From Escherichia phage vB_EcoM_ESCO32, in the sequence record OM386658.1: a DNA stretch of 64,000 bases; one strand, written 5' to 3'. Below, in pieces: positions 29,806 to 49,663 of the stretch. The first letter of the stretch is position 1. Every line of letters begins with the position of its first letter. The translations under genes were made by a program, and so were the position numbers. Below the pieces are notes generated by a model. It was not told where the DNA came from. It made no database searches and saw only the letters and a program-made list of their open reading frames with translations.

Positions 29806-32800
29806 ATGGGAGCTTTTACTTTCGACATTGAAAGTAACAACTTGCTTAATGACGAAAGTGTAGATTACTTGGCAAGTCCATATCGTTTAAAAGATAGTTT
29901 TGCAATGCACTGTATTGTGTGCGAAAGTCATGATACTGGAGAGATTATTGCTTTCCATGATGGTGATAAATATCTTTTCGATGGTCGTCCGTATGTTGAG
30001 ACTGACGGAAAGTATGAATACCGACTGGAGGAATATGAGCATTTAGAATATACCCATTTCCCTCTTAAAGATTTTCCTGATTTTGTAAATGGAACAGGTA
30101 AATTTAAAGGTAATTCAAACTATAAAATTACCAAAGTAGTTGGACATAACATCATTAACTTTGACTTACTGGCAATTAAATTATTTTTTAAACTCAACTA
30201 CAGTATTAAGTACAATACTTGGGGTAATAGTAACATTGAAATTTGTGATACTATGATCTTAAGTAAGACACTAAACCCTGATCGCTTCGGTGGTCATAGT
30301 CTGGCAGAGTTATCTAAGAAGGCTGGAGGGGATGTTAAAATTGATTTTAGAAAAAACATTCCTGAAACTGAAAGATTTAAAACATTTGCAGCAGATATGC
30401 TGTATTACTGTATTTACGATAACAAAGCTAACACCGCAGTGTTCCGTTATTTGATGGAAGAGTGGGGTGATTATAATAAGTGGTCTGAACCATTTAACTT
30501 AGAACAACGTGTAGCTGATATTATTACACGTCAAGAGCACCGTGGCTTTGCTTTCAATATGAAACAAGCAGAAGATAATATTCGTGATCTGGATGCTCGA
30601 ATGGAAGCATGTCGTTTAGAGGCAGAACCTGTGCTACCTCCTAAACCTGCTACTAAAGGTTATTTGAAATCATTCATTCCACCTAAACTACAGTTTAAAA
30701 AGAATGGTGAACCTTCAAGTAACATGATAAAGTTTGCAGAGAAACATTCTGGTGAACTTGTACAAAAAGAAGATGGTTGGTGGCTATTTGCATTAGGTAA
30801 AGAGTTTAAACTACCTATTCCAGCAGAAGAACCTATTTGTGATCCTACAGTACCTGCTACTTTAGACGACACTACACATATTAAAAACTGGTTAGTTGGT
30901 TTAGGTTGGAGTCCATCTGAATATAAAGATAAAGATATCACTCTTAAATCTGGCACTAAGATTAAGAAAGATGAAGCACAGATGGAGAAAGCTATTCGTG
31001 ACTATGTTGATCAAACGTTAGCATCTAATTTCTGCCAGGACAGATGTGATCATCTGGAGTGCACACCAGAAACTTTGGAATGGAAACTAAGAGATCGTAT
31101 TGCTAAAGCTAAAGGTCGTGGTGTTAAAGTGCTTACTAACCCTTCCTTTACAAAAGGGCAAGAGAAAGATATTTGTCCTAACTTGGAAGCACTAGGTGAA
31201 AAGTTTCCTTATGCTACGCAGATTGTGCAGTATCTTACGTATAAACACCGTAGGAACTCTATTCTAGGGGGTGGTGCTGATTGGGAAGAAGATGAAGAGG
31301 ATTATGATAAAGGTTATCTGGCAGCAGTAAGGGCTGATGGTCGTATACCAACTCCTGCTGCAACGTGTGATGCAGCTACGTCTCGTATGAAACATAGGTT
31401 AGTAGCAAATATCCCACGTGTAACATCTCTGTACGGATATGAAATGCGTAACTTATTTGGTGTAGAAGTTCCAAAATACTTCCAAATTGGTTATGATTTT
31501 GATTCTCTTGAGGCAAAAATAGAATCACACTACTGTGTACCTATGGATGCACAAGCACTAACCCGTAAAGGTTGGGTTGGTTATCACGATCTACAAGAAG
31601 GGGATGAAATCTTAGGATATAACCCAGAAACAGGACTTAAAGAATGGACTAAAGTAAAAGGTAAGGTCTTCTATAAAAATAGTAAGACGTTTGAGATTAA
31701 AGGAAAATCCCATACTTACCGTGCAACAGCAGATCACCGTTGGTATGTTAATACCCGTAGTAAAGGGAATACTTATGTGCCTAAAGTCAGAACAACTGCC
31801 GAGCTTTGCACAGGAGATAATATTATTTGTAATGCTCCATTTAACATGGAACAAGATCAGGTAAATAGTTTAACTTCTGTTCAACAAGGTAAATGGGATG
31901 TTCCGTGGGTAGAGCGTGTAGTTAATATGTCTCATGCCGAGCGTGTAGCTTTCTTGGAAGGTTTCTTGATTGCAGATGGTTACTGGCATGAACATAAACA
32001 AAAACCTGTTTGGCGTTGGGCGCAGAACCCAGGTGAACTTTTTGAAGCAGCTTTAACTGCCTCGTACCTGGTGCATGGAGGCAATATCTCTGTAGCTTTC
32101 AATACAAAAGAGCAGAAAGTAAAAGTGGCAACATTGGCTAACCGCTCTCACATTCCTGTTCAAAGTTTGACTATTGAAGAGTGGGGTGTAGAGGATGTTT
32201 GGTGTCCACAAACAGAACTTGGTACGTGGGTCATGCGTCAGAAAGACTGCATTACCATCACAGGAAACTGTTGGCGGTACGAGCAGGAACCACACGAATA
32301 TTGTAATGCTCTATTATTGGAAAAACCTAATGATGTTCATACAATGATGGCTCGACGTATTTCTGACACTATTGGTCGTAAGTTTGAACGAAGCCCTGCT
32401 AAATCTGTTAAGTATGGTATTACTTATGGTGCTCAAGCTGCAAAAGTAGCAAAAACTATAGGTAGTGATATGTATACCGGACAGCTTGTATACGATGCTT
32501 TCTGGGAAGCTGCAAAACCTCTTGCGCTTCTTAAAGAACGTCTGCATGACTTTTGGGTTAAAACAGGTAAGAAATACATTCTGGGTATTGATGGTAGGAA
32601 AGTACCTACACGATCTGCACACGCAATACTTAACTCTCTGTTCCAGAGTGGTGGTGTTATTTGTGCAAAAAGAGCAATGGTTATCTACGACGATCTTATC
32701 GAAGAAGAAGGATTAGCTGTTGACTTTTTTGTTGATGACTGGAAAAATAAGTCATTCGTTCAACAAATGATTGCATATCACGATGAAGCACAGCTTGAAG

Positions 32801-33120
32801 TAACTCGTGATCTGGTGCATTTTAAATGGTTCTCTAAAGAATCTTTAGGTTGGACTCAAGTTGATGATCCAGAAGAACAAAAGAAAATTGATAAAGAATG
32901 TTTGGATAAAGTTAATGCCTGGAAAGAAGAGGAAGAGAAACGTACTGGCAAGATTTGGGCTAACGTACATGAATCTCCGAAAGGTGGTTGGTTTACAGCC
33001 TACAGTCGTGCTGGAGAATTAGCATCTATCGCTGTTAATAAAGCTGGTGAGTATTACAATCTTAATGTACCTCTCACTGCTGGTTACGATGTTGGTAACT
33101 CATGGGCCAGTTGTCATTAG
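29806..33120 (+). CDS. family A DNA polymerase (T7 gp5-like) with 3'-5' exonuclease domain, interrupted by an intein
   Basis: Exo I FTFDIESNNL; RFGGHSLAEL; motif A region GYDFDSLEAKIESHY; motif B RSPAKSVKYGITYGAQ; ILGIDGRKVPTRSAHAILNSLFQSGG; C-terminal GYDVGNSWASCH. These parallel T7 gp5 as I recall it. Confidence 0.85.
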   Translation: MGAFTFDIESNNLLNDESVDYLASPYRLKDSFAMHCIVCESHDTGEIIAFHDGDKYLFDGRPYVETDGKYEYRLEEYEHLEYTHFPLKDFPDFVNGTGKFKGNSNYKITKVVGHNIINFDLLAIKLFFKLNYSIKYNTWGNSNIEICDTMILSKTLNPDRFGGHSLAELSKKAGGDVKIDFRKNIPETERFKTFAADMLYYCIYDNKANTAVFRYLMEEWGDYNKWSEPFNLEQRVADIITRQEHRGFAFNMKQAEDNIRDLDARMEACRLEAEPVLPPKPATKGYLKSFIPPKLQFKKNGEPSSNMIKFAEKHSGELVQKEDGWWLFALGKEFKLPIPAEEPICDPTVPATLDDTTHIKNWLVGLGWSPSEYKDKDITLKSGTKIKKDEAQMEKAIRDYVDQTLASNFCQDRCDHLECTPETLEWKLRDRIAKAKGRGVKVLTNPSFTKGQEKDICPNLEALGEKFPYATQIVQYLTYKHRRNSILGGGADWEEDEEDYDKGYLAAVRADGRIPTPAATCDAATSRMKHRLVANIPRVTSLYGYEMRNLFGVEVPKYFQIGYDFDSLEAKIESHYCVPMDAQALTRKGWVGYHDLQEGDEILGYNPETGLKEWTKVKGKVFYKNSKTFEIKGKSHTYRATADHRWYVNTRSKGNTYVPKVRTTAELCTGDNIICNAPFNMEQDQVNSLTSVQQGKWDVPWVERVVNMSHAERVAFLEGFLIADGYWHEHKQKPVWRWAQNPGELFEAALTASYLVHGGNISVAFNTKEQKVKVATLANRSHIPVQSLTIEEWGVEDVWCPQTELGTWVMRQKDCITITGNCWRYEQEPHEYCNALLLEKPNDVHTMMARRISDTIGRKFERSPAKSVKYGITYGAQAAKVAKTIGSDMYTGQLVYDAFWEAAKPLALLKERLHDFWVKTGKKYILGIDGRKVPTRSAHAILNSLFQSGGVICAKRAMVIYDDLIEEEGLAVDFFVDDWKNKSFVQQMIAYHDEAQLEVTRDLVHFKWFSKESLGWTQVDDPEEQKKIDKECLDKVNAWKEEEEKRTGKIWANVHESPKGGWFTAYSRAGELASIAVNKAGEYYNLNVPLTAGYDVGNSWASCH
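31534..32268 (+). mobile_element. intein (about 245 aa) after polymerase motif A, with LAGLIDADG-like motif
   Basis: Starts CVPMDAQALTRKGWVGYHDLQEGDEIL (block A-like); TADHRW (block B TxxH); AFLEGFLIADGYW (LAGLIDADG-like); ends ...CITITGN followed by +1 Cys. The region between motif A and the HTMMA block is about 245 aa longer than the T7 gp5 equivalent. Confidence 0.55.
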
Positions 33121-33149: not shown

Positions 33150-33737
33150 ATGGTATATGGTCATGGTATTTTTGATGGAGATTTTACTGTAAGATCTCCT
33201 AGAGGAACTATGCACCCTGCTTATATGAAATGGATGTCTATGTTGGGGAGGTGTTACTCCCCTTGTCAACAAGAACGTGATCCTTGTTATAATGGGGTGA
33301 CAGTTTGTGAAGAATGGAAGTTGTTCTCCAATTTCTATTCCTGGTTGCAAACTTGGGATGACTGGGAAAACTTAGAACTTGATAAAGATATTATAGGAGG
33401 GAGAGTTTACTCTCCCAATACCTGTCTTTTAGTAACAGGAGATCTTAATAAGTTCTTAGCTTATAGAGTAAGTAAAAGATCTCATGGGACTATGGTGGGA
33501 TGTAGTTACGAGAAAGATCGTAAAAAGTATAAAGCCAACATAAAAGTAGGCGGTCGCATGAAAACGCTGGGACGTTTTAATACTGAAATTGAAGCGCATC
33601 TTTGTTGGTTGAAGGCTAAGGCAGAACAGCTTACAAAATTCTTTGAAACTGAAGATGAAAGAGTTGTTCCACATCTTAAAGCACTATATAATGAAATGCT
33701 TGAGCATGTAGAACAACACAAAGAGTGGACACGATAG
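33150..33737 (+). CDS. AP2-domain DNA-binding protein, putative free-standing homing endonuclease-associated
   Basis: GCSYEKDRKKYKANIKVGGRMKTLGRFNTEIEAHLCWLKA matches the AP2 pattern (G.SY.K...KY.A.I...GK...LG.F.TEEEA..AY) often found in phage HNH/AP2 homing endonucleases; sits directly downstream of the polymerase. Confidence 0.4.
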   Translation: MVYGHGIFDGDFTVRSPRGTMHPAYMKWMSMLGRCYSPCQQERDPCYNGVTVCEEWKLFSNFYSWLQTWDDWENLELDKDIIGGRVYSPNTCLLVTGDLNKFLAYRVSKRSHGTMVGCSYEKDRKKYKANIKVGGRMKTLGRFNTEIEAHLCWLKAKAEQLTKFFETEDERVVPHLKALYNEMLEHVEQHKEWTR

Positions 33738-36925: not shown

Positions 36926-36936
36926 GATAAAAGAAA

Positions 36937-36960
36937 AGGAGCCTATTGGCTCCTTTTTGT
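36937..36960. terminator. bidirectional intrinsic terminator at the convergent strand switch
   Basis: aggagcc-tatt-ggctcct flanked by A-rich sequence upstream and ttttgttt downstream; sits between the converging gene ends at 36925 (+) and 36961 (-). Confidence 0.5.
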
Positions 36961-38847
36961 TTATGTAACATTGACTGTAAATCTGACAAGAGGTGATAAC
37001 ACGTCATTATCAGCATCATAGTGTGCAACATCAAACACTGCTGTACCTGCTGCAAACCCGTATTGTTCAACCTGATCTGCATAAGTAAATGTGTAAGTGT
37101 TAGTATCAAGAGTTTGTTCTGTAAGAATTGCTGCTGTGAGGACGTTTACATTTCGGAAGTAATGTTTGGTATATCCTGCTGGTTCCCAAGAAATAATTGC
37201 ATCTTGGTTAGCTTGTCTTACAGCGGCTCCTCCTGTTGGAACAGACATATCAACCCAAACAGGTGGTGTTGATGTTAAATCTGTACCGTCTGCTGCTGAT
37301 TTAGCAAGTTTTGTAGCTGCTGTTTGATATACAGAAGAAATATAATGGATACGACCATCAATACCTTCTTCATAAACATAACCACTGTAACGTTCAGCAC
37401 CATCTACCCAAGAACCAATGATAACATCATCACGTGCTGTAGAGATGGTTCTTTGTACATTTCTGTACTTCTGCCAATCCACACCATTAACTTCTACACC
37501 ATATAAATAAGAACGTCCTAGGATCTGCCAAACAATTTTTGCTTGAGAAGCAGGAACTATTGTACGCATCTTATCAAAGATAGCTATCGTAGCATCATGG
37601 TAACGTGTAGTGTTACTGTACCTACCTGCAACAGTCGAAGATGCTGATACAGCATCATTTTCACCTTGTCCCCAAATAATTGCTTTAACCTTACTTGCAT
37701 AAGGTGTGACTTTAGTGATAAAGTTAGTTAAGCATGGCCCATCTGCTGTGTTATCCAGATCATACCAGTAGTTGTCTGGTGTACCTGTTCCAGCTTTATC
37801 GTCAGCATATTTATCTGCTGCTGATGATCCAGAAGCTGTATTTAACGGAAGAACTTCAGCATTTGCTAAACCACGTTGCGTAGCATATGCATTACGGGTT
37901 GTTGTGCTACTCATTACTGCTTTATTTGCACCAGATAATTCTGTAAAGTGTGCATTTACGTTATCTTGTCCAGCAAAGACAATAACTTCTTTAATGAACG
38001 AATCATCTGTAGCTATTGAGTTATTAAAGATAACGGCTGCTGCTTTGGTGCTCTTAACGCTAATTTTAAGGTATGTTGGAGCAAACCCATAAAGAGGAAT
38101 AGAGTCAGAGATATCAAAGTAAGCGTAAGTATTCGTGGTTGTTGTAGTCCACTGAACACTATTATCACTTAAATCTAATACTTCTACAGTATAAGTATCA
38201 CCGTCTAGTGGATCAGTTACATCCCAAGCAACACGAACGTCTCCATAACTGTTTGCCACGGCTGTTACATTAGAAATAACAGGAATAGCATTAACACCTA
38301 AATAAGAACTATCAGAGGCCACAACTGTTCCTTGATACGTTGCAGTACAACCTATACGGCAATTGCCATCTTTAAGAGCAGTTATTAATCCTGTAGGGCT
38401 TACAGTAGCTACTTCTGGATCTGTTGTGGTGTATGTAATTACCATATCTGGAAGGTCTTTAGCACCTTCTGGACTGATTGTAGCAACCAACTGTTGAGTA
38501 GTGCCTACATCCATAGCCGATAGACTTTCAGTGTACACACTTAATTCTGAAGCATAACCACCAGATTGATCAGTTAAGACAGCACCTAAATTATTTTTAG
38601 CTGTCATTATTGCATCAAAACCACCTTCAGCAACAAACTCCATCATACCATTATTATCTATAACCATTTTGGTATTATCTGAAGATGAAAAAGCTATATC
38701 AAATAACGCACCATCTTCGGGTGTAACTGTATATGTCAGTTGTTTTTTACTACCAACTATTGCAATGCCAATAGAGGAAGTGGTTATAGATGTAGCTGTT
38801 ACTACTGAAGCTGATGTTGTTGACATAAATAAAGGAATAGGATACAT
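36961..38847 (-). CDS. tail fibre/decoration protein with two Big_2-like Ig domains and an SGNH/sialate-O-acetylesterase-like (DUF303-like) domain
   Basis: Two Big_2-like segments (IGIAIVGSKKQLTYTVTPEDG...; MDVGTTQQLVATISPEG...TTTDPEVATVSPTGLITALKDGNCRIGCTAT); esterase-like VFAGQDNV and IIWGQGENDA (compare GQSNM and WxQGExD). Confidence 0.45.
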   Translation of the reverse strand: MYPIPLFMSTTSASVVTATSITTSSIGIAIVGSKKQLTYTVTPEDGALFDIAFSSSDNTKMVIDNNGMMEFVAEGGFDAIMTAKNNLGAVLTDQSGGYASELSVYTESLSAMDVGTTQQLVATISPEGAKDLPDMVITYTTTDPEVATVSPTGLITALKDGNCRIGCTATYQGTVVASDSSYLGVNAIPVISNVTAVANSYGDVRVAWDVTDPLDGDTYTVEVLDLSDNSVQWTTTTTNTYAYFDISDSIPLYGFAPTYLKISVKSTKAAAVIFNNSIATDDSFIKEVIVFAGQDNVNAHFTELSGANKAVMSSTTTRNAYATQRGLANAEVLPLNTASGSSAADKYADDKAGTGTPDNYWYDLDNTADGPCLTNFITKVTPYASKVKAIIWGQGENDAVSASSTVAGRYSNTTRYHDATIAIFDKMRTIVPASQAKIVWQILGRSYLYGVEVNGVDWQKYRNVQRTISTARDDVIIGSWVDGAERYSGYVYEEGIDGRIHYISSVYQTAATKLAKSAADGTDLTSTPPVWVDMSVPTGGAAVRQANQDAIISWEPAGYTKHYFRNVNVLTAAILTEQTLDTNTYTFTYADQVEQYGFAAGTAVFDVAHYDADNDVLSPLVRFTVNVT

Positions 38848-38865: not shown

Positions 38866-38883
38866 AAGCCCCCGAAGGGGCTT
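38866..38883 (-). terminator. terminator-like hairpin between tail fibre genes
   Basis: aagcccc-cgaa-ggggctt hairpin immediately after the stop of the 38887-40848 gene on the minus strand. Confidence 0.35.
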
Positions 38884-38886
38884 TGA

Positions 38887-40848
38887 TTATGTGCGTTTAG
38901 CAACAATAGCATCCACGTAATCACCAACACCACAATATGTTAGTTGTAGTATTGTTACTCCGTTAGGATCTGTATTAATATCACTAGAACCAATTACTTT
39001 ATAAGATGGATCTAAAGTAACAGTACGACCTCCAGTGGCATCTTGGATAAGATAAACTATTGCAGAGAATGGTTTAGGTTTTGTGCTATCTTCGACACCA
39101 GGCCATGCTTTTATAGTAGAGTTACCAGTAAGATTCAACACATTCATGTTATGTGTTCCTGGAGGTGTCCAGTCACCTGTAACAGAGTTGTTGGTATATG
39201 CTGTAACCTCTATAAAATTAGTTGTTACTTTTGTTGGAACTATATCTTGACCATCTACAGAACTGGTGAGTTCTTCCCATGCTCCATCTTTACGAGCATA
39301 GATCTTACCGTCACTAGGTGCATCTGTGATGCTAGGTAGTGTACCTTGAGAAGTCCAGACAGTTGCAGATGTTTTTAAGAACACCTCGCCAGTGGAGATA
39401 TTAAAGGCATAATCACCTTGTTTACCATCACTAGAGATTGGATCTGTTGTTTTAACAATCCAAGTTGCACCGTCTGTACCGTTAGTACCAGCGTCACCTT
39501 TTTCACCCTTATCACCTTTCAAACTACCCATATCTACATATTCAGCAGTTTGAGTTTGTTCGTCATAGGTGTAAATGTAAAGATGGCCTGTATCTTCCGT
39601 CAGATAAGCGTCACCGTAATTGGCTGTAGGAGGAAGTGCACTTGCAGACGCAACGTGTCCTTTTGCAGTGATTGGAGTACCAGCTAAACGACCAACATTT
39701 GTCCACTCTGTGGCTCCTTGCAACCAGACCCAAAGTTCATTATTGATCAGATAACCATCACCATCTTCTCCAGTTTGTGGTAGTTCAGAAGTGCTAGTCA
39801 GAATATCAATAATAGTCAACCCTGCGCCAGTTGGCCCCGTCAAGCCTTGTATACCCTGCTCACCTTGATCACCCTTGTCTCCCTTATCACCTTTTTCTCC
39901 TTTCAGAGAGGCAATATATTCGTCAATAGTACCAACGTTACCAGCATTTAACCAGACTTGATAAGCAGAATCACCAGTGTTACCCTTATCTCCTTTGTCG
40001 CCTTTATCTCCTTTTGGCCCCACTATAGCGCCCATATTGATCCATTCTACACCGTTTGACACGTATAGATATGTACCAATACTCCATGCTTGAGATGTGT
40101 TTCCAGGAGATGCAGAAGGAAGATCTGAAACAGAGTTAGCTGCACCTTGGTAATCAAAACCATTAGCATTATTACCTGGTACACCTTGTGGCCCCTCTGG
40201 GCCAGGCTCCCCTTTATCACCTTTAATTGAAGCAAGATAATCTAGTTCTGTACCTTGGTTCCCTGCTGCAAGCCAAACTTGATAAGCAGATTTACCCTCT
40301 GGCCCCTGTGAGTTTACTTTTCTCCAAGCAGTACCATCCCAAGCATACATATTCTCGCCTACAATCCATGCATCTCCTGCATTGTTTCCAGTTGTAGGTA
40401 ATTGGTTGGTATTAGATAGTGTCCCTAGTAGCTTTAATGGAGCACCTGGATCACCTTTTAAAGAAGCCAACCACTGTGTCTCAGTACCTTGGAAACCATT
40501 GTCTACGGCAATCTGGTAAGCTGATTTACCAGCTTCTGGGATGGATTCTCTAAGATCTTCAATTTCAGCTTCAATAGCATCTAATTCTGATTCTATTTGA
40601 GCAATGTCATCTGCATTACCCACATTTTTCCAAGCTGTATCTGAAATCCCTCCAGTAGATGTAGGAGTAGAGTTAGCAGGTACAACTTTAGGTAGAGAAC
40701 CTTTCCACTGATAGTAGTTACCGTCAGCTTCAAAGAGCAATGCTTCACGAGCATCTCTTAAGGTAAAACCACTTGCAAAACTTCTACGCTTTCTATAGCG
40801 AGACTCTACCATGTCTGCAATGGCACTATTTGGACGTGTTAAAATCAC
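38887..40848 (-). CDS. tail fibre protein with collagen-like Gly-X-Y repeats
   Basis: GDKGDKGDKGNTGDS; GEKGDKGDKGDQGEQGIQGLTGPTG; GDKGEPGPEGPQGVPG; GDKGEKGDAGTNGTDG; interleaved with a repeated SAYQ(V/I)W(L)..G..GT...Y(L)AS(L)KG module. GTG start after aaaaggag. Confidence 0.55.
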   Translation of the reverse strand: MILTRPNSAIADMVESRYRKRRSFASGFTLRDAREALLFEADGNYYQWKGSLPKVVPANSTPTSTGGISDTAWKNVGNADDIAQIESELDAIEAEIEDLRESIPEAGKSAYQIAVDNGFQGTETQWLASLKGDPGAPLKLLGTLSNTNQLPTTGNNAGDAWIVGENMYAWDGTAWRKVNSQGPEGKSAYQVWLAAGNQGTELDYLASIKGDKGEPGPEGPQGVPGNNANGFDYQGAANSVSDLPSASPGNTSQAWSIGTYLYVSNGVEWINMGAIVGPKGDKGDKGDKGNTGDSAYQVWLNAGNVGTIDEYIASLKGEKGDKGDKGDQGEQGIQGLTGPTGAGLTIIDILTSTSELPQTGEDGDGYLINNELWVWLQGATEWTNVGRLAGTPITAKGHVASASALPPTANYGDAYLTEDTGHLYIYTYDEQTQTAEYVDMGSLKGDKGEKGDAGTNGTDGATWIVKTTDPISSDGKQGDYAFNISTGEVFLKTSATVWTSQGTLPSITDAPSDGKIYARKDGAWEELTSSVDGQDIVPTKVTTNFIEVTAYTNNSVTGDWTPPGTHNMNVLNLTGNSTIKAWPGVEDSTKPKPFSAIVYLIQDATGGRTVTLDPSYKVIGSSDINTDPNGVTILQLTYCGVGDYVDAIVAKRT

Positions 40849-40888: not shown

Positions 40889-43303
40889 TTAAGCATTATT
40901 GACAGTAACAAAAGTAACAGGGTTCAGAGCTTTAATTTTTGTATTCTCTGCTGTAGGTGTTACAATTGGATCTGCAATATCTATTGTGTACAAACTATTT
41001 GTCACATATGTAGCACGTGCTATAGTTGTCACAAGATCGCCGCCATTTACACCTGCACCTGGAATAACAATCTTAGTACCTGCTGCTTTAGCGTAGCCAT
41101 TACTAGCCCAGTTTAAAGCATTAGACTGTAGATAGGTTTGACCTGTAACAGTTGCTTTTATTTTCTCATTATCACTAAAGAAAGCACCACCTGCTGTAAC
41201 AACGTGTTTTTTACCGCTTGCACAATGAATAACTGTTCCAGTAGGGAAGTCACGCCCACCTGGGAATTCATCATAAGCTGTAAAATATTGTTCAGAAATA
41301 GTAGTTAAAACTGGCCCACGATGACCTGTACCATCAACAGCAGTTGGAACACCAAAGTTATTTCCAACCTGATCGCAACGATCAGTGTAGATTTTAGCAA
41401 AAGAAACTGTTATTTCATCTCCGCTAAGTGCTGTACATCCTACCCACTTCATATACGTGAATTGGCTGCGAGTATAGAAACCGCCACCACTTCCTTCTCC
41501 GCTTCCATGTTGACCAATAAAGTCAATGCTACGGCAACGAATGTTATTAAAGGTAGAGCTAGATGGTAGTCCACGCCATTTAAAAACATTACAATTGATG
41601 TTACTAACAATTGTAGAGTTTTCCCAGGCATCTGATCCAGCCGTTGCAATCTCAATTGAAGATTCTGGAATATCCAAATTCTTAATTGTAAAGTTAATTG
41701 GTGGCCCCGCATATCTTCCACTGTTAACACCCCAGTCAATAAAGACCATGCGTGTTGAAACAGACGGATCATTAAGCAGATAACCAGTTAAACCATCAAC
41801 TTCAAAATCTTGGCATCCGTATAATGCAACACCACAAGTAGTTAAACCTGTACCTGTTGAAACTGCTGTGTTAGGATAAACTTCGTTATCACGTATTGTG
41901 AAGTTTTTACCCATTTCAACGTGTAAACATTGACGGCAATTGTAAACCCTATTCCCAACGATACTGAAATTACGTACATATTGTGAATCAGGAACATCAA
42001 CACCATATGGGCCACTACCTGCTACACCAATACCAATACCCCAGTTTGCCCCTTGTCCAGAAGCATCTACGTTAGCAATGTGGTTATTCTCGATAATCAA
42101 ACCTTCAGTGTAGTGTTTTTGAACTACGTTAAGTTCAATAGCATCACCTTTAATATCGTGAATATAGTTGTTAGAGTAACGCCCGTAGGTCATTACTTCT
42201 CCAGTACCTTGTTGCAGGATCGCATATTTACAACCATACATTTCGTTGTAACTGAAGTCCAACGTACCTTCACTTGTCATTGCTTGCATTAAGAATGCTG
42301 CTGTAGATGTTGCGTTGGAGAAGATATTACGATAGAATCGGCAATCACCACCTAACATCTTAACATAACATTTTTCAAAGCGAACGTTTTCCATCCAACA
42401 AGACACAGTAGAAATCATTGTTCCACCGTTACCAGTGAATGTACCACCATACCAACGAATACCAGACATAGCAATTGAGCTTGTGAATCTATAATTCTTA
42501 TCTGCACGTACTTGAATGTTATTCGTGTTAGCGAAAGTAATGGTTTTTAAAATTGCTTGAGTATCATCGGTAACTCCATCACCAATTGCACCAAACTGCT
42601 CAGGCGTTACAAAGTATTGAGCTTGTAAGAGGTTGCCTCCAGATGGAAGACCAACCATTGCTGCACCAGTGGTGGATGACAAAAGGTTTTTCTCTACGTA
42701 AGAAGTAGAGGCTGTTGTTTTACCAATAAAAGCAAACAATTTGTTAGGTAGACCAGTAGACGGATCTAAACCTAGTGGTTCTGCCAGAATAATTTTACTA
42801 TCTTTGATAGTAAATGCTTCACCTTGAATCTGAATTACACCGTTAATGGTGACAATAGCATTATCAAAGATATAAGGAGGACTGATTTCTGTTTCATATC
42901 CTGTAGCACCTTTAAAATACCAAGGATACACATCTGAAGCTAACTGTTCAGTTTTAAGAGCGTACAGAGTCCAGTTACTATCTCCTACAGGTGTTCCCTG
43001 CATAGGTACAGGGTTCGCAGTAGTGGCAGATGGGGCATAATAGTACCCACTCAAGATACCGTTTTCAAAATAACGTAACTGGTTAAATACAGTTTCAGTT
43101 GATCCTGCTGACCAAGCAACAGGACTCTTAAAGAAGAAGTTATCAACAAGTGCTTTACGCAGTGTAGGTATTAAACCTGTTTCGGTTTCTACAGTTGCTG
43201 TAGCATCTCCATTAATAACATCATGCATCTGGTTAGACGAGAATATAACCAGATCAACACCTTGTTCTAGTGTCGTAGCAGGATATGTTGGAAAATTCGC
43301 CAT
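40889..43303 (-). CDS. tailspike protein with pectate-lyase-like right-handed beta-helix (putative polysaccharide depolymerase)
   Basis: QFGAIGDGVTDDTQAI is the classic N-terminal signature of pectate-lyase-superfamily tailspikes; 804 aa; downstream repetitive beta-strand-rich sequence. Confidence 0.55.
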   Translation of the reverse strand: MANFPTYPATTLEQGVDLVIFSSNQMHDVINGDATATVETETGLIPTLRKALVDNFFFKSPVAWSAGSTETVFNQLRYFENGILSGYYYAPSATTANPVPMQGTPVGDSNWTLYALKTEQLASDVYPWYFKGATGYETEISPPYIFDNAIVTINGVIQIQGEAFTIKDSKIILAEPLGLDPSTGLPNKLFAFIGKTTASTSYVEKNLLSSTTGAAMVGLPSGGNLLQAQYFVTPEQFGAIGDGVTDDTQAILKTITFANTNNIQVRADKNYRFTSSIAMSGIRWYGGTFTGNGGTMISTVSCWMENVRFEKCYVKMLGGDCRFYRNIFSNATSTAAFLMQAMTSEGTLDFSYNEMYGCKYAILQQGTGEVMTYGRYSNNYIHDIKGDAIELNVVQKHYTEGLIIENNHIANVDASGQGANWGIGIGVAGSGPYGVDVPDSQYVRNFSIVGNRVYNCRQCLHVEMGKNFTIRDNEVYPNTAVSTGTGLTTCGVALYGCQDFEVDGLTGYLLNDPSVSTRMVFIDWGVNSGRYAGPPINFTIKNLDIPESSIEIATAGSDAWENSTIVSNINCNVFKWRGLPSSSTFNNIRCRSIDFIGQHGSGEGSGGGFYTRSQFTYMKWVGCTALSGDEITVSFAKIYTDRCDQVGNNFGVPTAVDGTGHRGPVLTTISEQYFTAYDEFPGGRDFPTGTVIHCASGKKHVVTAGGAFFSDNEKIKATVTGQTYLQSNALNWASNGYAKAAGTKIVIPGAGVNGGDLVTTIARATYVTNSLYTIDIADPIVTPTAENTKIKALNPVTFVTVNNA

Positions 43304-47331: not shown

Positions 47332-47576
47332 TAGTTATCCTCCTTATCAGGGGCAGGTGATCTGCCCCAACGTAAATCTATTAAATTCTTCATTAGTCTG
47401 GATGGTGTGATCATAAAAACAAAAGCCCAGCCCATCCATTCAGGAATTTCTTTATCAATTCCCAAATAAATAAACATACTGGACATAACAATCATACCAA
47501 TAGCATTCCAAACTTTAGTAGAACTGACTTTATTATCAGGATATGTACAAAACATACCTATTAAAAATTTTCTCAT
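47331..47576 (-). CDS. small two-helix membrane protein (hypothetical)
   Basis: 81 aa with two hydrophobic segments (AIGMIVMSSMFIYLGI; WMGWAFVFMITP) and a charged C-terminus. Confidence 0.3.
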   Translation of the reverse strand: MRKFLIGMFCTYPDNKVSSTKVWNAIGMIVMSSMFIYLGIDKEIPEWMGWAFVFMITPSRLMKNLIDLRWGRSPAPDKEDN

Positions 47577-47587
47577 ACTAGAGATCC

Positions 47588-49663
47588 TTAAGAAGAAACA
47601 TATACTGTATCTTGTAAAAAGACATTCAGAGGTACGTTACCCATATAAAAAACTTGGGATTTTGAATTAAGAACAGTTAATGAATCTGCCATAATTTGTG
47701 GATAAGCCCATATGTATTGATACAAACCAACAAACTTCTGGTCATTCAATACAATATTACCTATAATCATTTTCCACAAATATGTTCTGTAGTCTGATTC
47801 AGGATCAAAGCCATATAATGGTGCTAGAGTTGCATCTGGAACAAACCCTGCAAGATAATGTATCTTATCATAACTAAAACCTAGTTGCTCATTAGGTATT
47901 TTAATAGCGTCGAAAGATCTTTCCATCTGACCTTCCAACAACCAGTCATAACATTCTGAACAATAAAAGTCAAAGTTTTCTGGGATATAATAATCTTTAG
48001 GGAAGTTAACAAACTCCATCATACCGTTACCTAAAATGGATGGCACAAATGGTAATAATGTAACTTTAGCCCCAGGATATGCTAATCTAGTATCTGTTGC
48101 AAATTTAGCAACACGCAGTCCTAATGTTTTAGATAGGAATGCATAATATTCATCATATGGTGTACCAGTTTTATAATTCTTAACTGTACCAACATCTTGT
48201 GCATATAATCCAGTTTCATTATTAAATGCAACTTTGGTTGTATAATCATAAATACACGGTAGATTGGTAGCTGTGTTATACCACCACCACGGTTCACCAA
48301 CCTGAATAATAACAGGAAGATCATTGGCAGCGGATATAGAAGCTATCTTATTTATTACACCTTGTAAATAATTCATCCCTTCATCAATTGAAGGAGATAA
48401 AACATAACTTGGTGGCTCATAACCTGTAGCAGCCAGATCATCATTCCAAGTATGTTGAACCCATTCTACAGGACACACTGTACTCATAAGTTCAAAACTT
48501 AAGGAGTTCATTACTGTGTAGCCCATAGCTTTTGCATTAGCGTGGAAATTATCAAACCATGCTTCTGTTGCTGGGTTTAAATATTCTGTTCTATTCAAAA
48601 CCCATTTATTAGAACCAGCATCCCAACTAAACTGATAATAGTGTGACATACCATTATAATGGTTAATCATATCCCTATAACCTAATCTGTAGGTGTTAGA
48701 AATAACTCGCTCTGGGGTCAGGTTATACATATCATCATAAGATGTACACATTCTTATGGTGTGTGCTGGAACATTTAAATTACCCATATTCATCATACTG
48801 TAACCAGTATCAGGCTCCAGTATGGTAAACTTAAAGGAAAGATCCACATTGTCTACAGGAATAATATCTTCAATTTCTTGATACCTTGTGGAGATCAAGG
48901 AGAAGAACATATTATCTATCTGTGTAGTGTCAACAACAATATCATTTTCTGGCCCAGATTTTAAATTTGAGAAATCTAGTTTGATTGTTGCTGTCTTACC
49001 ATCTTCTGAAACTTCTTCTGCATAAAAGTTTAGAGATACATAATGAACTGTTTCATCCTTCAGTGTCACTGTTAAGGATGGTATTAATTTTTCTTCTTTT
49101 AATCCAGGAACACCTTGACTAAGTTCCATTTTAAACCAAAGTTTCTCTTTACTTAAGTCAGAATGTTCTTGGTAGCCTAATCCTTTGTGATCATATTTAT
49201 CGTAAGTTGACCAAATAATCCCAGCAAGACCAGCCACTGTCCTATTAACCATTCTTGCTGTGAAAGAATCACCATTAGAGATAATAGAACAACTTTCTGT
49301 TGCTTGAGAATCTATTGTCCAAAACTTAGGATCAAACATTCTAGACTTCACAACAGGCCAAGTTAGCGGGGTTGTATTCGATTGATCAGTCGTAATAACA
49401 CAACGAATTTCTTCGTTGATCATCATGTTATTTTGACTTATGCTAGTAATCTCAAGAGTAAAATAAAGATCTAAAGAGTTTGCCGGACGTTCATATACAT
49501 CAACCACTACAGTAGCAGAATCTGCATCAGAAGGGAACGTTACTGTTCCCTGTTTAGCTACATAATCTCTACCAGCGACCGCCGTTCCATCGACGGTCTT
49601 ATAGCTGAATGAACTGGCATTTACTCTCGTATTTCGAGTTACAGTAAAAATAGCCTGTTTCAT
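47588..49663 (-). CDS. large virion structural protein (hypothetical)
   Basis: 691 aa, aromatic-rich; no catalytic motif identified by eye. Confidence 0.35.
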   Translation of the reverse strand: MKQAIFTVTRNTRVNASSFSYKTVDGTAVAGRDYVAKQGTVTFPSDADSATVVVDVYERPANSLDLYFTLEITSISQNNMMINEEIRCVITTDQSNTTPLTWPVVKSRMFDPKFWTIDSQATESCSIISNGDSFTARMVNRTVAGLAGIIWSTYDKYDHKGLGYQEHSDLSKEKLWFKMELSQGVPGLKEEKLIPSLTVTLKDETVHYVSLNFYAEEVSEDGKTATIKLDFSNLKSGPENDIVVDTTQIDNMFFSLISTRYQEIEDIIPVDNVDLSFKFTILEPDTGYSMMNMGNLNVPAHTIRMCTSYDDMYNLTPERVISNTYRLGYRDMINHYNGMSHYYQFSWDAGSNKWVLNRTEYLNPATEAWFDNFHANAKAMGYTVMNSLSFELMSTVCPVEWVQHTWNDDLAATGYEPPSYVLSPSIDEGMNYLQGVINKIASISAANDLPVIIQVGEPWWWYNTATNLPCIYDYTTKVAFNNETGLYAQDVGTVKNYKTGTPYDEYYAFLSKTLGLRVAKFATDTRLAYPGAKVTLLPFVPSILGNGMMEFVNFPKDYYIPENFDFYCSECYDWLLEGQMERSFDAIKIPNEQLGFSYDKIHYLAGFVPDATLAPLYGFDPESDYRTYLWKMIIGNIVLNDQKFVGLYQYIWAYPQIMADSLTVLNSKSQVFYMGNVPLNVFLQDTVYVSS

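What the first reader, a model, noticed from the sequence alone, without database searches (positions are those of the whole stretch)
36961..38847. Fibre/decoration protein combining Ig-like (Big_2) domains with a putative SGNH/sialate-O-acetylesterase-like domain
The protein starts with two Big_2-like Ig domains and carries internal motifs VFAGQDNV and IIWGQGENDA that resemble the GQSNM and WxQGExD signatures of carbohydrate O-acetylesterases (SASA/DUF303). It would be a receptor-modifying enzyme that deacetylates O-antigen or capsule. It sits next to a collagen-like fibre and a pectate-lyase-fold tailspike, so the phage has three distinct receptor-binding or receptor-destroying proteins.
Basis: partly seen in the sequence, partly recalled or inferred. 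Interest (0 to 1): 0.55.

Follow-up and report, generated by a model that had tools for sequence, protein, structure and literature searches.

The report
Phage tail adhesin with serine-less esterase domain
This is a tail protein of a phi92-like E. coli phage whose sugar-esterase-type domain is real but has lost its catalytic serine, so it more likely binds a host surface sugar than deacetylates it; the same module also occurs in the receptor-binding tail sheath of phage N4.

Summary
The ORF (36961-38847, minus strand, 628 aa) and both motifs are real. The window comes from a phi92-like Justusliebigvirus myophage, and the protein is 100% identical to that of phage outra. The gene is the intact ortholog of phi92 gp152+gp153.

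Domain order: a conserved N-terminal MYPIP peptide, two Big_2 Ig domains, an FN3-like domain, a SASA/SGNH-fold domain, and a second FN3-like domain.

The block-I motif, however, reads GQDN. An Asp replaces the nucleophilic Ser of GQSNM, the residue whose S128A mutation inactivates SIAE. All 36 ortholog clusters carry Asp, and the block-V His is Gln in two of them. A canonical esterase is therefore unlikely. The best reading is a non-catalytic, glycan-binding "pseudo-esterase" adhesin.

The closest solved relative is the receptor-binding tail sheath gp65 of phage N4 (profile E 2e-115). A second gene in the window (47588-49663) carries the other sheath modules.

Half of the sequenced relatives carry an extra C-terminal fibre-tip domain that is absent here. 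phi92's own copy is broken.

Verdict: partly supported, a new variant of a known kind, moderate interest.

The parts
36961..38847 (-). Complete gene, 628 aa plus stop. It is the intact ortholog of phi92 gp152+gp153 and the short allele of the Justusliebigvirus 'tail protein / lateral tail fiber protein / tail carbohydrate esterase'.
   Evidence: (phrog_32204, full length)
38803..38847 (-). N-terminal peptide (aa 1-15, MYPIPLFMS...). It is conserved as M[YF]PIP in rV5-like and Phapecoctavirus tail proteins that have different C-terminal domains. Inferred to be the virion-attachment segment.
   Evidence: The model has low confidence here.
38287..38802 (-). Two tandem Big_2 Ig-like domains (aa ~16-100 and ~103-187).
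   Evidence: Pfam PF02368 at E 1.9e-13, two stretches. All-beta domains at pLDDT 80-91. PDB hits 6n1a and 7quz.
38017..38280 (-). FN3-like beta domain (aa ~190-277). It is homologous to N4 gp65 from about residue 623 and is the segment deleted in the phi92 reference genome.
37282..37998 (-). SASA/SGNH-fold domain (aa ~284-522). Block I is GQDN (G293, D295, N296), block II is SGSS (~339-342), block III is WGQGEND (392-398), and block V is RIHY (H501). The nucleophile Ser is replaced by Asp295.
37960..37971 (-). GQDN motif. Asp295 (codon at 37963-37965) sits at the catalytic-serine position of GQSN.
37654..37674 (-). WGQGEND block III motif.
36964..37263 (-). C-terminal FN3-like domain (aa ~529-628). 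It is homologous to the repeated C-terminal domains of N4 gp65 (aa ~985-1067, 1082-1171, 1206-1276). The protein ends here, whereas long alleles continue into a 311-aa fibre-tip domain.
38866..38883 (-). Terminator-like hairpin between the collagen-like fibre gene and this gene. An AAGGAG RBS follows it.
36933..36958 (.). Bidirectional terminator-like hairpin immediately after the stop codon, between convergent genes.
47588..49663 (-). Companion gene, phi92 gp142-like, 691 aa: Calx-beta, non-contractile-tail-sheath N-terminal domain and TIM barrel. It matches N4 gp64 and gp65 aa 340-416 and carries the GMSHY motif published as the NGR-binding signature. Together with the finding's gene it accounts for most modules of the N4 gp64/gp65 sheath.
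   Evidence: preprint 10.64898/2026.04.02.716166

Best explanation
The gene encodes a tail-fibre-module protein of a phi92-like myophage. It is probably anchored to the virion by its conserved N-terminal peptide and held out on two Big_2 Ig domains. Its distal part is an FN3 / SGNH / FN3 block that shares ancestry with the middle of N4's receptor-binding sheath protein gp65. The SGNH domain descends from SASA-type carbohydrate O-acetylesterases and keeps most of the substrate pocket: G293, N296, S342, W392, G395, E396, D398, and usually H501. It has lost the nucleophilic serine (Asp295). It most likely no longer hydrolyses acetyl esters. Instead it probably works as a lectin-like module that binds a host surface glycan reversibly, possibly an acetylated one, and adds one more low-affinity contact to the phage's multivalent adsorption apparatus. 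Shown here: the ORF, the domain architecture, the fold, the homology to gp65 and to SASA esterases, the Ser-to-Asp replacement and its conservation, and the allele structure. Inferred: presence and position in the virion, glycan binding, identity of the ligand, and lack of catalysis.
Against: No activity or binding data exist. The model coordinates were not exposed, so the D295-H501 geometry could not be measured. Conservation of nearly the whole catalytic apparatus, including the His in 33 of 35 clusters with the motif, would also fit an enzyme with an altered mechanism. Two GenBank records call the protein a 'tail carbohydrate esterase'. The phi92 copy is disrupted, so the protein is dispensable at least for that phage in the laboratory. 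The recent phi92 virion structure does not place it, although a broken gene would not be expected to yield a normal product there.
Confidence: 0.55

Rival explanations
1. This is the first reader's reading: an active receptor-modifying O-acetylesterase. The domain would still deacetylate O-antigen, capsule or NGR-type glycan. Asp295 would act as the nucleophile, or as a general base with His501 activating water, or a neighbouring Ser would take over.
Against: From established knowledge, all characterised SGNH/SASA enzymes use a Ser nucleophile. Mutating this Ser inactivates SIAE. The close relative P0125 has Ala at this position, and two ortholog clusters have Gln in place of the His, which is hard to reconcile with conserved catalysis. 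To my knowledge Asp-nucleophile acyl transfer is not known in this fold. The protein falls below the Pfam SASA cutoff.
Confidence: 0.2
2. The domain is a purely structural spacer or decoration. The SGNH and FN3 domains would be inert scaffolding inherited from a sheath-type tail protein, and any host contact would come only from the Ig domains or, in long alleles, from the C-terminal tip.
For: In N4 the homologous region is part of a structural sheath with degenerate catalytic motifs. Long alleles carry a dedicated fibre-tip domain, which suggests the receptor-binding function lies there. phi92 tolerates disruption of the gene.
Against: Pocket residues are invariant across homologs only 42-46% identical, which goes beyond what a fold-only constraint predicts. 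Short alleles that end at the FN3 domain persist in 27 of 54 genomes, and Avunavirus-type homologs end at the same position.
Confidence: 0.15
3. The domain is a component of the NGR/NfrA recognition machinery shared with N4. Together with the gp142-like protein it would reconstitute the receptor-binding sheath modules of N4, and the serine-less esterase domain would hold the ManNAc-based NGR polymer or its exporter NfrA.
For: Justusliebigvirus phages and N4 both depend on NGR (PMC11990801; preprint). This protein matches gp65 aa 623-1076 (E 2e-115), and the gp142-like protein matches gp64 plus gp65 aa 340-416. gp65 is the N4 RBP for NfrA (PMC13434306). Achromobacter phages carry the module, and the Achromobacter nfr cluster includes O-acetyltransferase homologs (PMC8669472).
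Against: Most NGR-dependent Vequintavirus and Phapecoctavirus records match only the Big_2 part of this protein, so the module is not needed for NGR use in general. The module occurs in sheath proteins of Schitoviridae with other hosts and receptors. The published NGR signature GMSHY lies in the other gene. phi92's copy is broken.
Confidence: 0.1

Closest known systems
Coliphage N4 gp65, non-contractile tail sheath / receptor-binding protein (PDB 9LC0, 9YF4, 9YF5; phrog_15324)
   Same: The FN3 / SGNH-like / FN3 block (aa ~195-628) is homologous to gp65 aa 623-1076: phmmer E 2e-25, profile E 2e-115, Foldseek E 1e-24 with TM 0.77-0.79, 21-23% identity. The C-terminal FN3-like domain matches the repeated gp65 C-terminal domains. 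In both proteins the esterase-type domain lacks a full catalytic set. Both phage groups use the NGR pathway for adsorption.
   Different: gp65 is 1382 aa, has two SGNH-like copies and several FN3 repeats, and starts with the sheath N-terminal and TIM-barrel modules. In this phage those modules sit on a separate gene (47588-49663). gp65 wraps a short podovirus tail with gp64. This protein has a Big_2 Ig stalk and belongs to a contractile-tailed phage, so it cannot be a sheath.
SASA / DUF303 carbohydrate O-acetylesterases (PF03629; 1ZMB, 2APJ, NanS 3PT5, XAC1771 7KMM, SIAE 8F9O)
   Different: The nucleophilic Ser is Asp. The protein scores below the Pfam gathering cutoff. The Asp of the canonical DxxH is not in register (DGRIH). 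The domain is embedded in a phage tail protein between FN3-like domains.
SGNH deacetylase tailspikes of phages (G7C gp63.1, PDB 4QNL; Moo19/B2-type esterase tailspikes)
   Different: Those are demonstrated enzymes with a catalytic Ser and belong to a more distant branch of the fold. This domain lacks the Ser and is closer to the N4 sheath lineage.
phi92 gp152 + gp153 (YP_009012484, YP_009012485)
   Same: Orthologous locus, about 97% nucleotide identity, same flanking genes (gp151 fibre upstream, gp154 and the methyltransferase downstream).
   Different: In the phi92 reference the gene is split by a 226-nt deletion that removes the FN3-like domain and by a 2-nt insertion. The window has the intact 628-aa reading frame.
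Long allele of the same gene (936-939 aa; alia, BME3, Bas60-62 'lateral tail fiber protein')
   Same: 94-97% identical over all 628 aa, including GQDN.
   Different: It carries an extra 311-aa C-terminal domain matching tail fibre gp17 (9OCC, E 1.6e-19) and the RcGTA head spike (6TB9). That domain is absent here.

Membership tests
SASA / SGNH carbohydrate esterase (PF03629) | SGNH-hydrolase alpha/beta/alpha fold | tested here: met
SASA / SGNH carbohydrate esterase (PF03629) | Score at or above the Pfam gathering cutoff | tested here: not met
   15.1 bits for the full protein and 16.2 bits for the domain, against a cutoff of 24.8. Homology holds only by transitivity: 14 of 24 family members hit SASA, best E 5.7e-13.
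SASA / SGNH carbohydrate esterase (PF03629) | Block I nucleophilic Ser (GQSN / GDS) | tested here: not met
   GQDN, with Asp295 in this protein and in all 36 ortholog clusters. The same Ser is the residue changed in the inactive SIAE S128A mutant.
SASA / SGNH carbohydrate esterase (PF03629) | Block III (WxQGExD) and block II (Gly/Ser) oxyanion-hole region | tested here: met
   WGQGEND at 392-398 and SGSS at 339-342, aligned without gaps to the family consensus and to SIAE block III.
SASA / SGNH carbohydrate esterase (PF03629) | Block V catalytic His (DxxH) | tested here: inconclusive
   His501 is present (RIHY) and aligns with the family His. It is Gln in 2 of 35 ortholog clusters, and the Asp lies at -4 rather than -3.
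SASA / SGNH carbohydrate esterase (PF03629) | Acetylesterase activity | not testable with these tools
   Needs an enzyme assay.
Big_2 bacterial Ig-like domain (PF02368) | Pfam score above the gathering cutoff; Ig-like beta sandwich | tested here: met
   50.6 bits against 22.8, two stretches. Beta domains at pLDDT 80-91.
N4-type non-contractile tail sheath / RBP (gp65; phrog_15324) | Homology to the gp65 FN3 / SGNH-like / FN3 region | tested here: met
N4-type non-contractile tail sheath / RBP (gp65; phrog_15324) | Sheath N-terminal domain (PF23844) and TIM barrel (PF23845) | tested here: not met
   Absent from this protein. Present in the separate gene 47588-49663.
N4-type non-contractile tail sheath / RBP (gp65; phrog_15324) | Forms a sheath around a short non-contractile tail and binds NfrA | not testable with these tools
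   The host phage is a contractile-tailed myovirus (baseplate, sheath and tape-measure genes). Virion position and ligand are unknown.
Phage SGNH deacetylase tailspikes (G7C gp63.1 type) | Catalytic Ser-His(-Asp) SGNH domain with demonstrated O-antigen deacetylation | tested here: not met

The most novel reading that the evidence does not exclude
The serine-less esterase domain is a naturally 'frozen' enzyme that grips a host glycan without cutting it. The candidate ligand is the ManNAc-based N4 glycan receptor, or an O-acetylated form of it. On this reading phi92-like myophages and N4-like podophages share one ancestral receptor-recognition kit, the gp64/gp65 sheath modules, which the myophages have split across two tail-fibre genes (47588-49663 and 36961-38847).
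Probability: 0.15. Interest if true: 0.65.

Novelty: new variant of a known kind. Interest (0 to 1): 0.4.

Why it matters
Phi92-like phages are studied and used because of their unusually broad host range, yet it is still unclear which gene builds which fibre and which fibre binds what. Annotation pipelines are beginning to label this gene a 'carbohydrate esterase'. The missing catalytic serine shows that label is probably wrong and suggests a binding role instead. That changes how host-range predictions and engineering should treat the gene. The extended homology to the N4 receptor-binding sheath, in phages that share N4's unusual glycan receptor pathway, yields a directly testable idea about how that poorly understood receptor is recognised. 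The even split between alleles with and without a distal fibre tip is a natural experiment for host-range studies.

Tried and rejected
1. Full-length AF2 with a 9-sequence alignment gave an unusable esterase domain (pLDDT 35-77). I replaced it with a domain-level model built from 24 diverse sequences.
2. The word-indexed homolog search with the C-terminal part returned only 2 proteins. The exhaustive HMMER search was needed to find the family.
3. I asked whether this gene is the published NGR-binding protein (phi92 Gp142, motif GMSHY). It is not: the motif lies in ORF 47588-49663.
4. I asked whether the longer (936-939 aa) homologs meant a missed upstream start or a fusion with the collagen-like fibre. 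They do not: the extra part is C-terminal.
5. Direct sequence alignment of a GQSNM-bearing relative to SIAE covered only block III. The catalytic-Ser equivalence was therefore shown with a block-I peptide against wild-type and S128A SIAE.
6. The phi92 genome paper (PMC3457257) is not held. No paper mentions gp153. The 2026 phi92 virion structure does not place gp152/153.
7. Model coordinates are not exposed to scripts, so active-site distances could not be measured.
8. The sigma-70 promoter scan around the gene gave no more sites than shuffled sequence (8 against 7.7), so no promoter is claimed.

Full report
OBSERVATION. The ORF listing gives an ATG-initiated ORF at 36961..38847 on the minus strand, 628 aa. 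An AAGGAG ribosome-binding site precedes the gene. A terminator-like hairpin at 38866-38883 separates it from the upstream fibre gene, and a bidirectional hairpin at 36933-36958 follows its stop codon. The neighbours are as described. ORF 38887-40848 carries a Tail_spike_N domain, collagen repeats and a fibritin-like segment. ORF 40889-43303 is the colanidase tailspike.

SOURCE. The region is 99.3% identical to Escherichia phage outra and 97-99% identical to about 55 Justusliebigvirus (phi92-like) myophage genomes. The protein is 100% identical to the outra protein. Annotators have called the orthologs 'hypothetical protein', 'tail protein', 'putative tail component protein', 'lateral tail fiber protein', 'tail carbohydrate esterase' (KMB37, ALITA) and 'non-contractile tail sheath' (KKE7M).

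DOMAIN ARCHITECTURE. Pfam Big_2 is significant, at 50.6 bits against a cutoff of 22.8, with two stretches. A full-length AF2 model shows three confident all-beta domains (aa ~16-100, 103-187 and 190-277) followed by a poorly modelled region. A second model of aa 276-628, built on 24 diverse homologs, is excellent: pLDDT 95.1 and pTM 0.90. It shows an alpha/beta/alpha domain (aa ~284-522) followed by a beta-sandwich (aa ~529-628).

THE CATALYTIC SERINE IS MISSING. An exhaustive HMMER search of 1.8 billion representative proteins with aa 270-628 found only 75 clusters. I aligned the 79 domain copies from those clusters. Most read GQSN in block I, GGS or GSS in block II, WxQGExD in block III and xxH[YF] in block V. 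The window protein reads GQDN, its 42-46% identical relatives read GGDN, and the 45% identical P0125 reads GQAN. All 36 ortholog clusters returned by the first homolog search have Asp at this position, 32 as GQDN and 4 as GGDN.

The Ser in GQSNM is the essential residue, and the PDB shows this directly. Wild-type dog SIAE (8f9o) reads CSGQSNM. The entry titled 'inactive mutant S128A' (8f9p) reads CSGQANM at the same place. FI8 (9h4u) has a non-standard residue there. In the model, residue 295 lies at the start of the first helix immediately after strand beta-1, which is the SGNH nucleophile position.

The His of block V (H501) is present here but is Gln in two ortholog clusters. Across the family, Ser and His are kept together in 43 copies and lost together in 7. 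In 5 copies only the Ser is lost, and in 3 only the His. That pattern is what one expects if the Ser-bearing members are real enzymes and this phage-tail family has repeatedly produced non-catalytic derivatives.

The rest of the pocket has not decayed. G293, D295, N296, H300, W392, G395, E396 and D398 are invariant between homologs only 42-46% identical. My inference is that the pocket is still used, most simply for binding rather than for hydrolysis.

CLOSEST SOLVED RELATIVE. The best PDB match by sequence is the 1382-aa 'non-contractile tail sheath' of phage N4, gp65 (9lc0, 9yf4, 9yf5). The phmmer E-value is 2e-25. A family profile reaches E 2e-115 and aligns aa ~195-628 to gp65 residues 623-1076. 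The C-terminal domain also matches the repeated gp65 domains at 1082-1171, 1206-1276 and about 1296-1369. Foldseek agrees, with E 1e-24 and TM 0.77-0.79.

gp65 is the N4 receptor-binding protein that contacts NfrA, and it forms the sheath as a heterodimer with gp64 (PMC13434306). The two SGNH-like copies in gp65 are degenerate. The first reads GESQ and has no aligned block V. The second reads GINQF, has lost block III and has Tyr in place of the His.

A SECOND SHEATH-RELATED GENE IN THE WINDOW. A 2026 preprint assigns recognition of the N4 glycan receptor (NGR) in Vequintavirus and Justusliebigvirus to a phi92 Gp142-like fibre protein. That protein shares a 59-76-aa stretch with gp65 containing the motif GMSHY. 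In this window GMSHY lies at 48638-48652, inside ORF 47588-49663, which is a different gene. That 691-aa protein matches Pfam 'non-contractile tail sheath N-terminal domain' and 'TIM barrel' (E 7.9e-82), N4 gp64 (E 7e-28) and gp65 residues 340-416.

The phage therefore carries most modules of the N4 gp64/gp65 sheath on two separate tail-fibre genes, and the finding's gene is the second half. I found no paper that notes this longer homology. Justusliebigvirus phages Bas60-62 and N4 both depend on NGR (PMC11990801). NGR is thought to be a ManNAc-based polymer. In Achromobacter, whose phages also carry this domain, the nfr cluster includes O-acetyltransferase homologs (PMC8669472).

The link to NGR remains only a lead, for three reasons. 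Most Vequintavirus and Phapecoctavirus records match only the Big_2 region. The module is widespread in Schitoviridae sheath proteins. The published NGR signature lies in the other gene.

EVIDENCE THAT IT IS A FIBRE-TYPE RECEPTOR-BINDING PROTEIN. The gene is the last one of the tail-fibre module, both here and in the 41% identical Avunavirus homolog. Its N-terminal M[YF]PIP peptide is shared with rV5-like and Phapecoctavirus tail proteins that carry RCC1-like or other distal domains. That is the usual pattern of a conserved anchor with exchangeable distal modules. All 24 family members hit the PHROG 'tail sheath and receptor binding protein'.

Half of the sequenced relatives (27 of 54 records) carry a 933-nt insertion just before the stop codon. 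It adds 311 aa that match the solved tail fibre gp17 (9occ, E 1.6e-19) and the RcGTA head-spike fibre (6tb9, E 3e-14). The window has the short allele, which ends at the FN3-like domain, as do the Avunavirus-type homologs.

DISPENSABILITY. In the phi92 reference genome the gene is split into gp152 and gp153. A 226-nt deletion between CAGCCGT repeats removes the FN3-like domain, and there is a 2-nt insertion further downstream. The protein is therefore not essential for phi92 in the laboratory. This may also explain why the 2026 phi92 virion structure does not mention it.

MECHANISM AND CONFIDENCE. The architecture, the fold and both homologies are shown with high confidence. The functional reading is an inference at about 0.55. 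It holds that the protein is an accessory adhesin whose serine-less esterase pocket binds, but does not cleave, a host surface glycan.

- An active esterase with an unconventional mechanism remains possible (about 0.2). This is because Asp295 is invariant and most of the catalytic apparatus is retained.
- A purely structural role (about 0.15) fits the N4 sheath precedent but not the conserved pocket.
- A specific role in NGR/NfrA recognition (about 0.1 as a separate claim) is the most interesting reading that the evidence does not exclude.

NOVELTY. The gene, its Ig domains and an esterase-like annotation are already in public records. The new points are the loss of the nucleophile, the extended homology to the N4 receptor-binding sheath, and the split of the sheath modules across two fibre genes. 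I rate the finding as a new variant of a known kind and of moderate interest.

Noticed in passing
window 47588-49663 (-): A 691-aa protein with Calx-beta, non-contractile-tail-sheath N-terminal domain (PF23844) and TIM barrel (PF23845, E 7.9e-82). It matches N4 gp64 (E 7e-28) and gp65 aa 340-416 and holds the GMSHY motif (48638-48652) published as the NGR-binding signature. In N4 the matching stretches lie on two proteins (gp65 aa 340-416 and gp64 aa 109-367), whereas here they lie in one polypeptide.
   Followed up: partly
window 36961-36963 (stop codon); long allele in e.g. MN850632 (alia), MZ501100 (PaulScherrer): There is a presence/absence polymorphism. Twenty-seven phage records have the short allele, as here, and 27 have a 933-nt insertion just before the stop codon. 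The insertion encodes a 311-aa domain matching tail fibre gp17 (9occ, E 1.6e-19) and the RcGTA head spike (6tb9). It has no Pfam family.
   Followed up: partly
L001 14662-16324 (phi92 NC_023693, gp152/gp153): The type phage phi92 has this gene broken by a 226-nt deletion flanked by a CAGCCGT direct repeat and by a 2-nt insertion. It is annotated as two ORFs, one of them noted as 'no RBS identified; weak prodigal statistics'.
   Followed up: yes
window 47332-47587: Only about 256 nt separate the gp142-like gene from the gp145-like baseplate wedge gene. phi92 has the gp143 endosialidase tailspike and gp144 at this position, so this phage appears to lack a tailspike at that slot.
   Followed up: partly
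window 33150-33737 (+): A 195-aa ORF lies between the DNA polymerase and the nucleotidyltransferase, where phi92 has only a 137-nt gap. It has no Pfam hit. By eye, the C-terminal part resembles the AP2-type DNA-binding domain of free-standing homing endonucleases.
   Followed up: partly
window 29806-33120 (+): By eye, the 1104-aa DNA polymerase I ORF contains an intein-like insert with a LAGLIDADG-type motif (FLEGFLIADGYW). The phi92 polymerase gene has the same length.
   Followed up: no
window 38866-38883 (-) and 36933-36958: A terminator-like hairpin sits between the collagen-like fibre gene and this gene, which could lower this gene's expression relative to the fibre. A bidirectional hairpin sits between the convergent late and early gene blocks.
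   Followed up: partly
proteins P0039-P0060: Tail proteins from related large myophage-sized contigs share the MYPIP N-terminus and the Big_2 domains, but carry RCC1-like beta-propeller or DUF285 domains in place of the esterase-like module. The locus appears to be a hotspot for distal-domain exchange.
   Followed up: no
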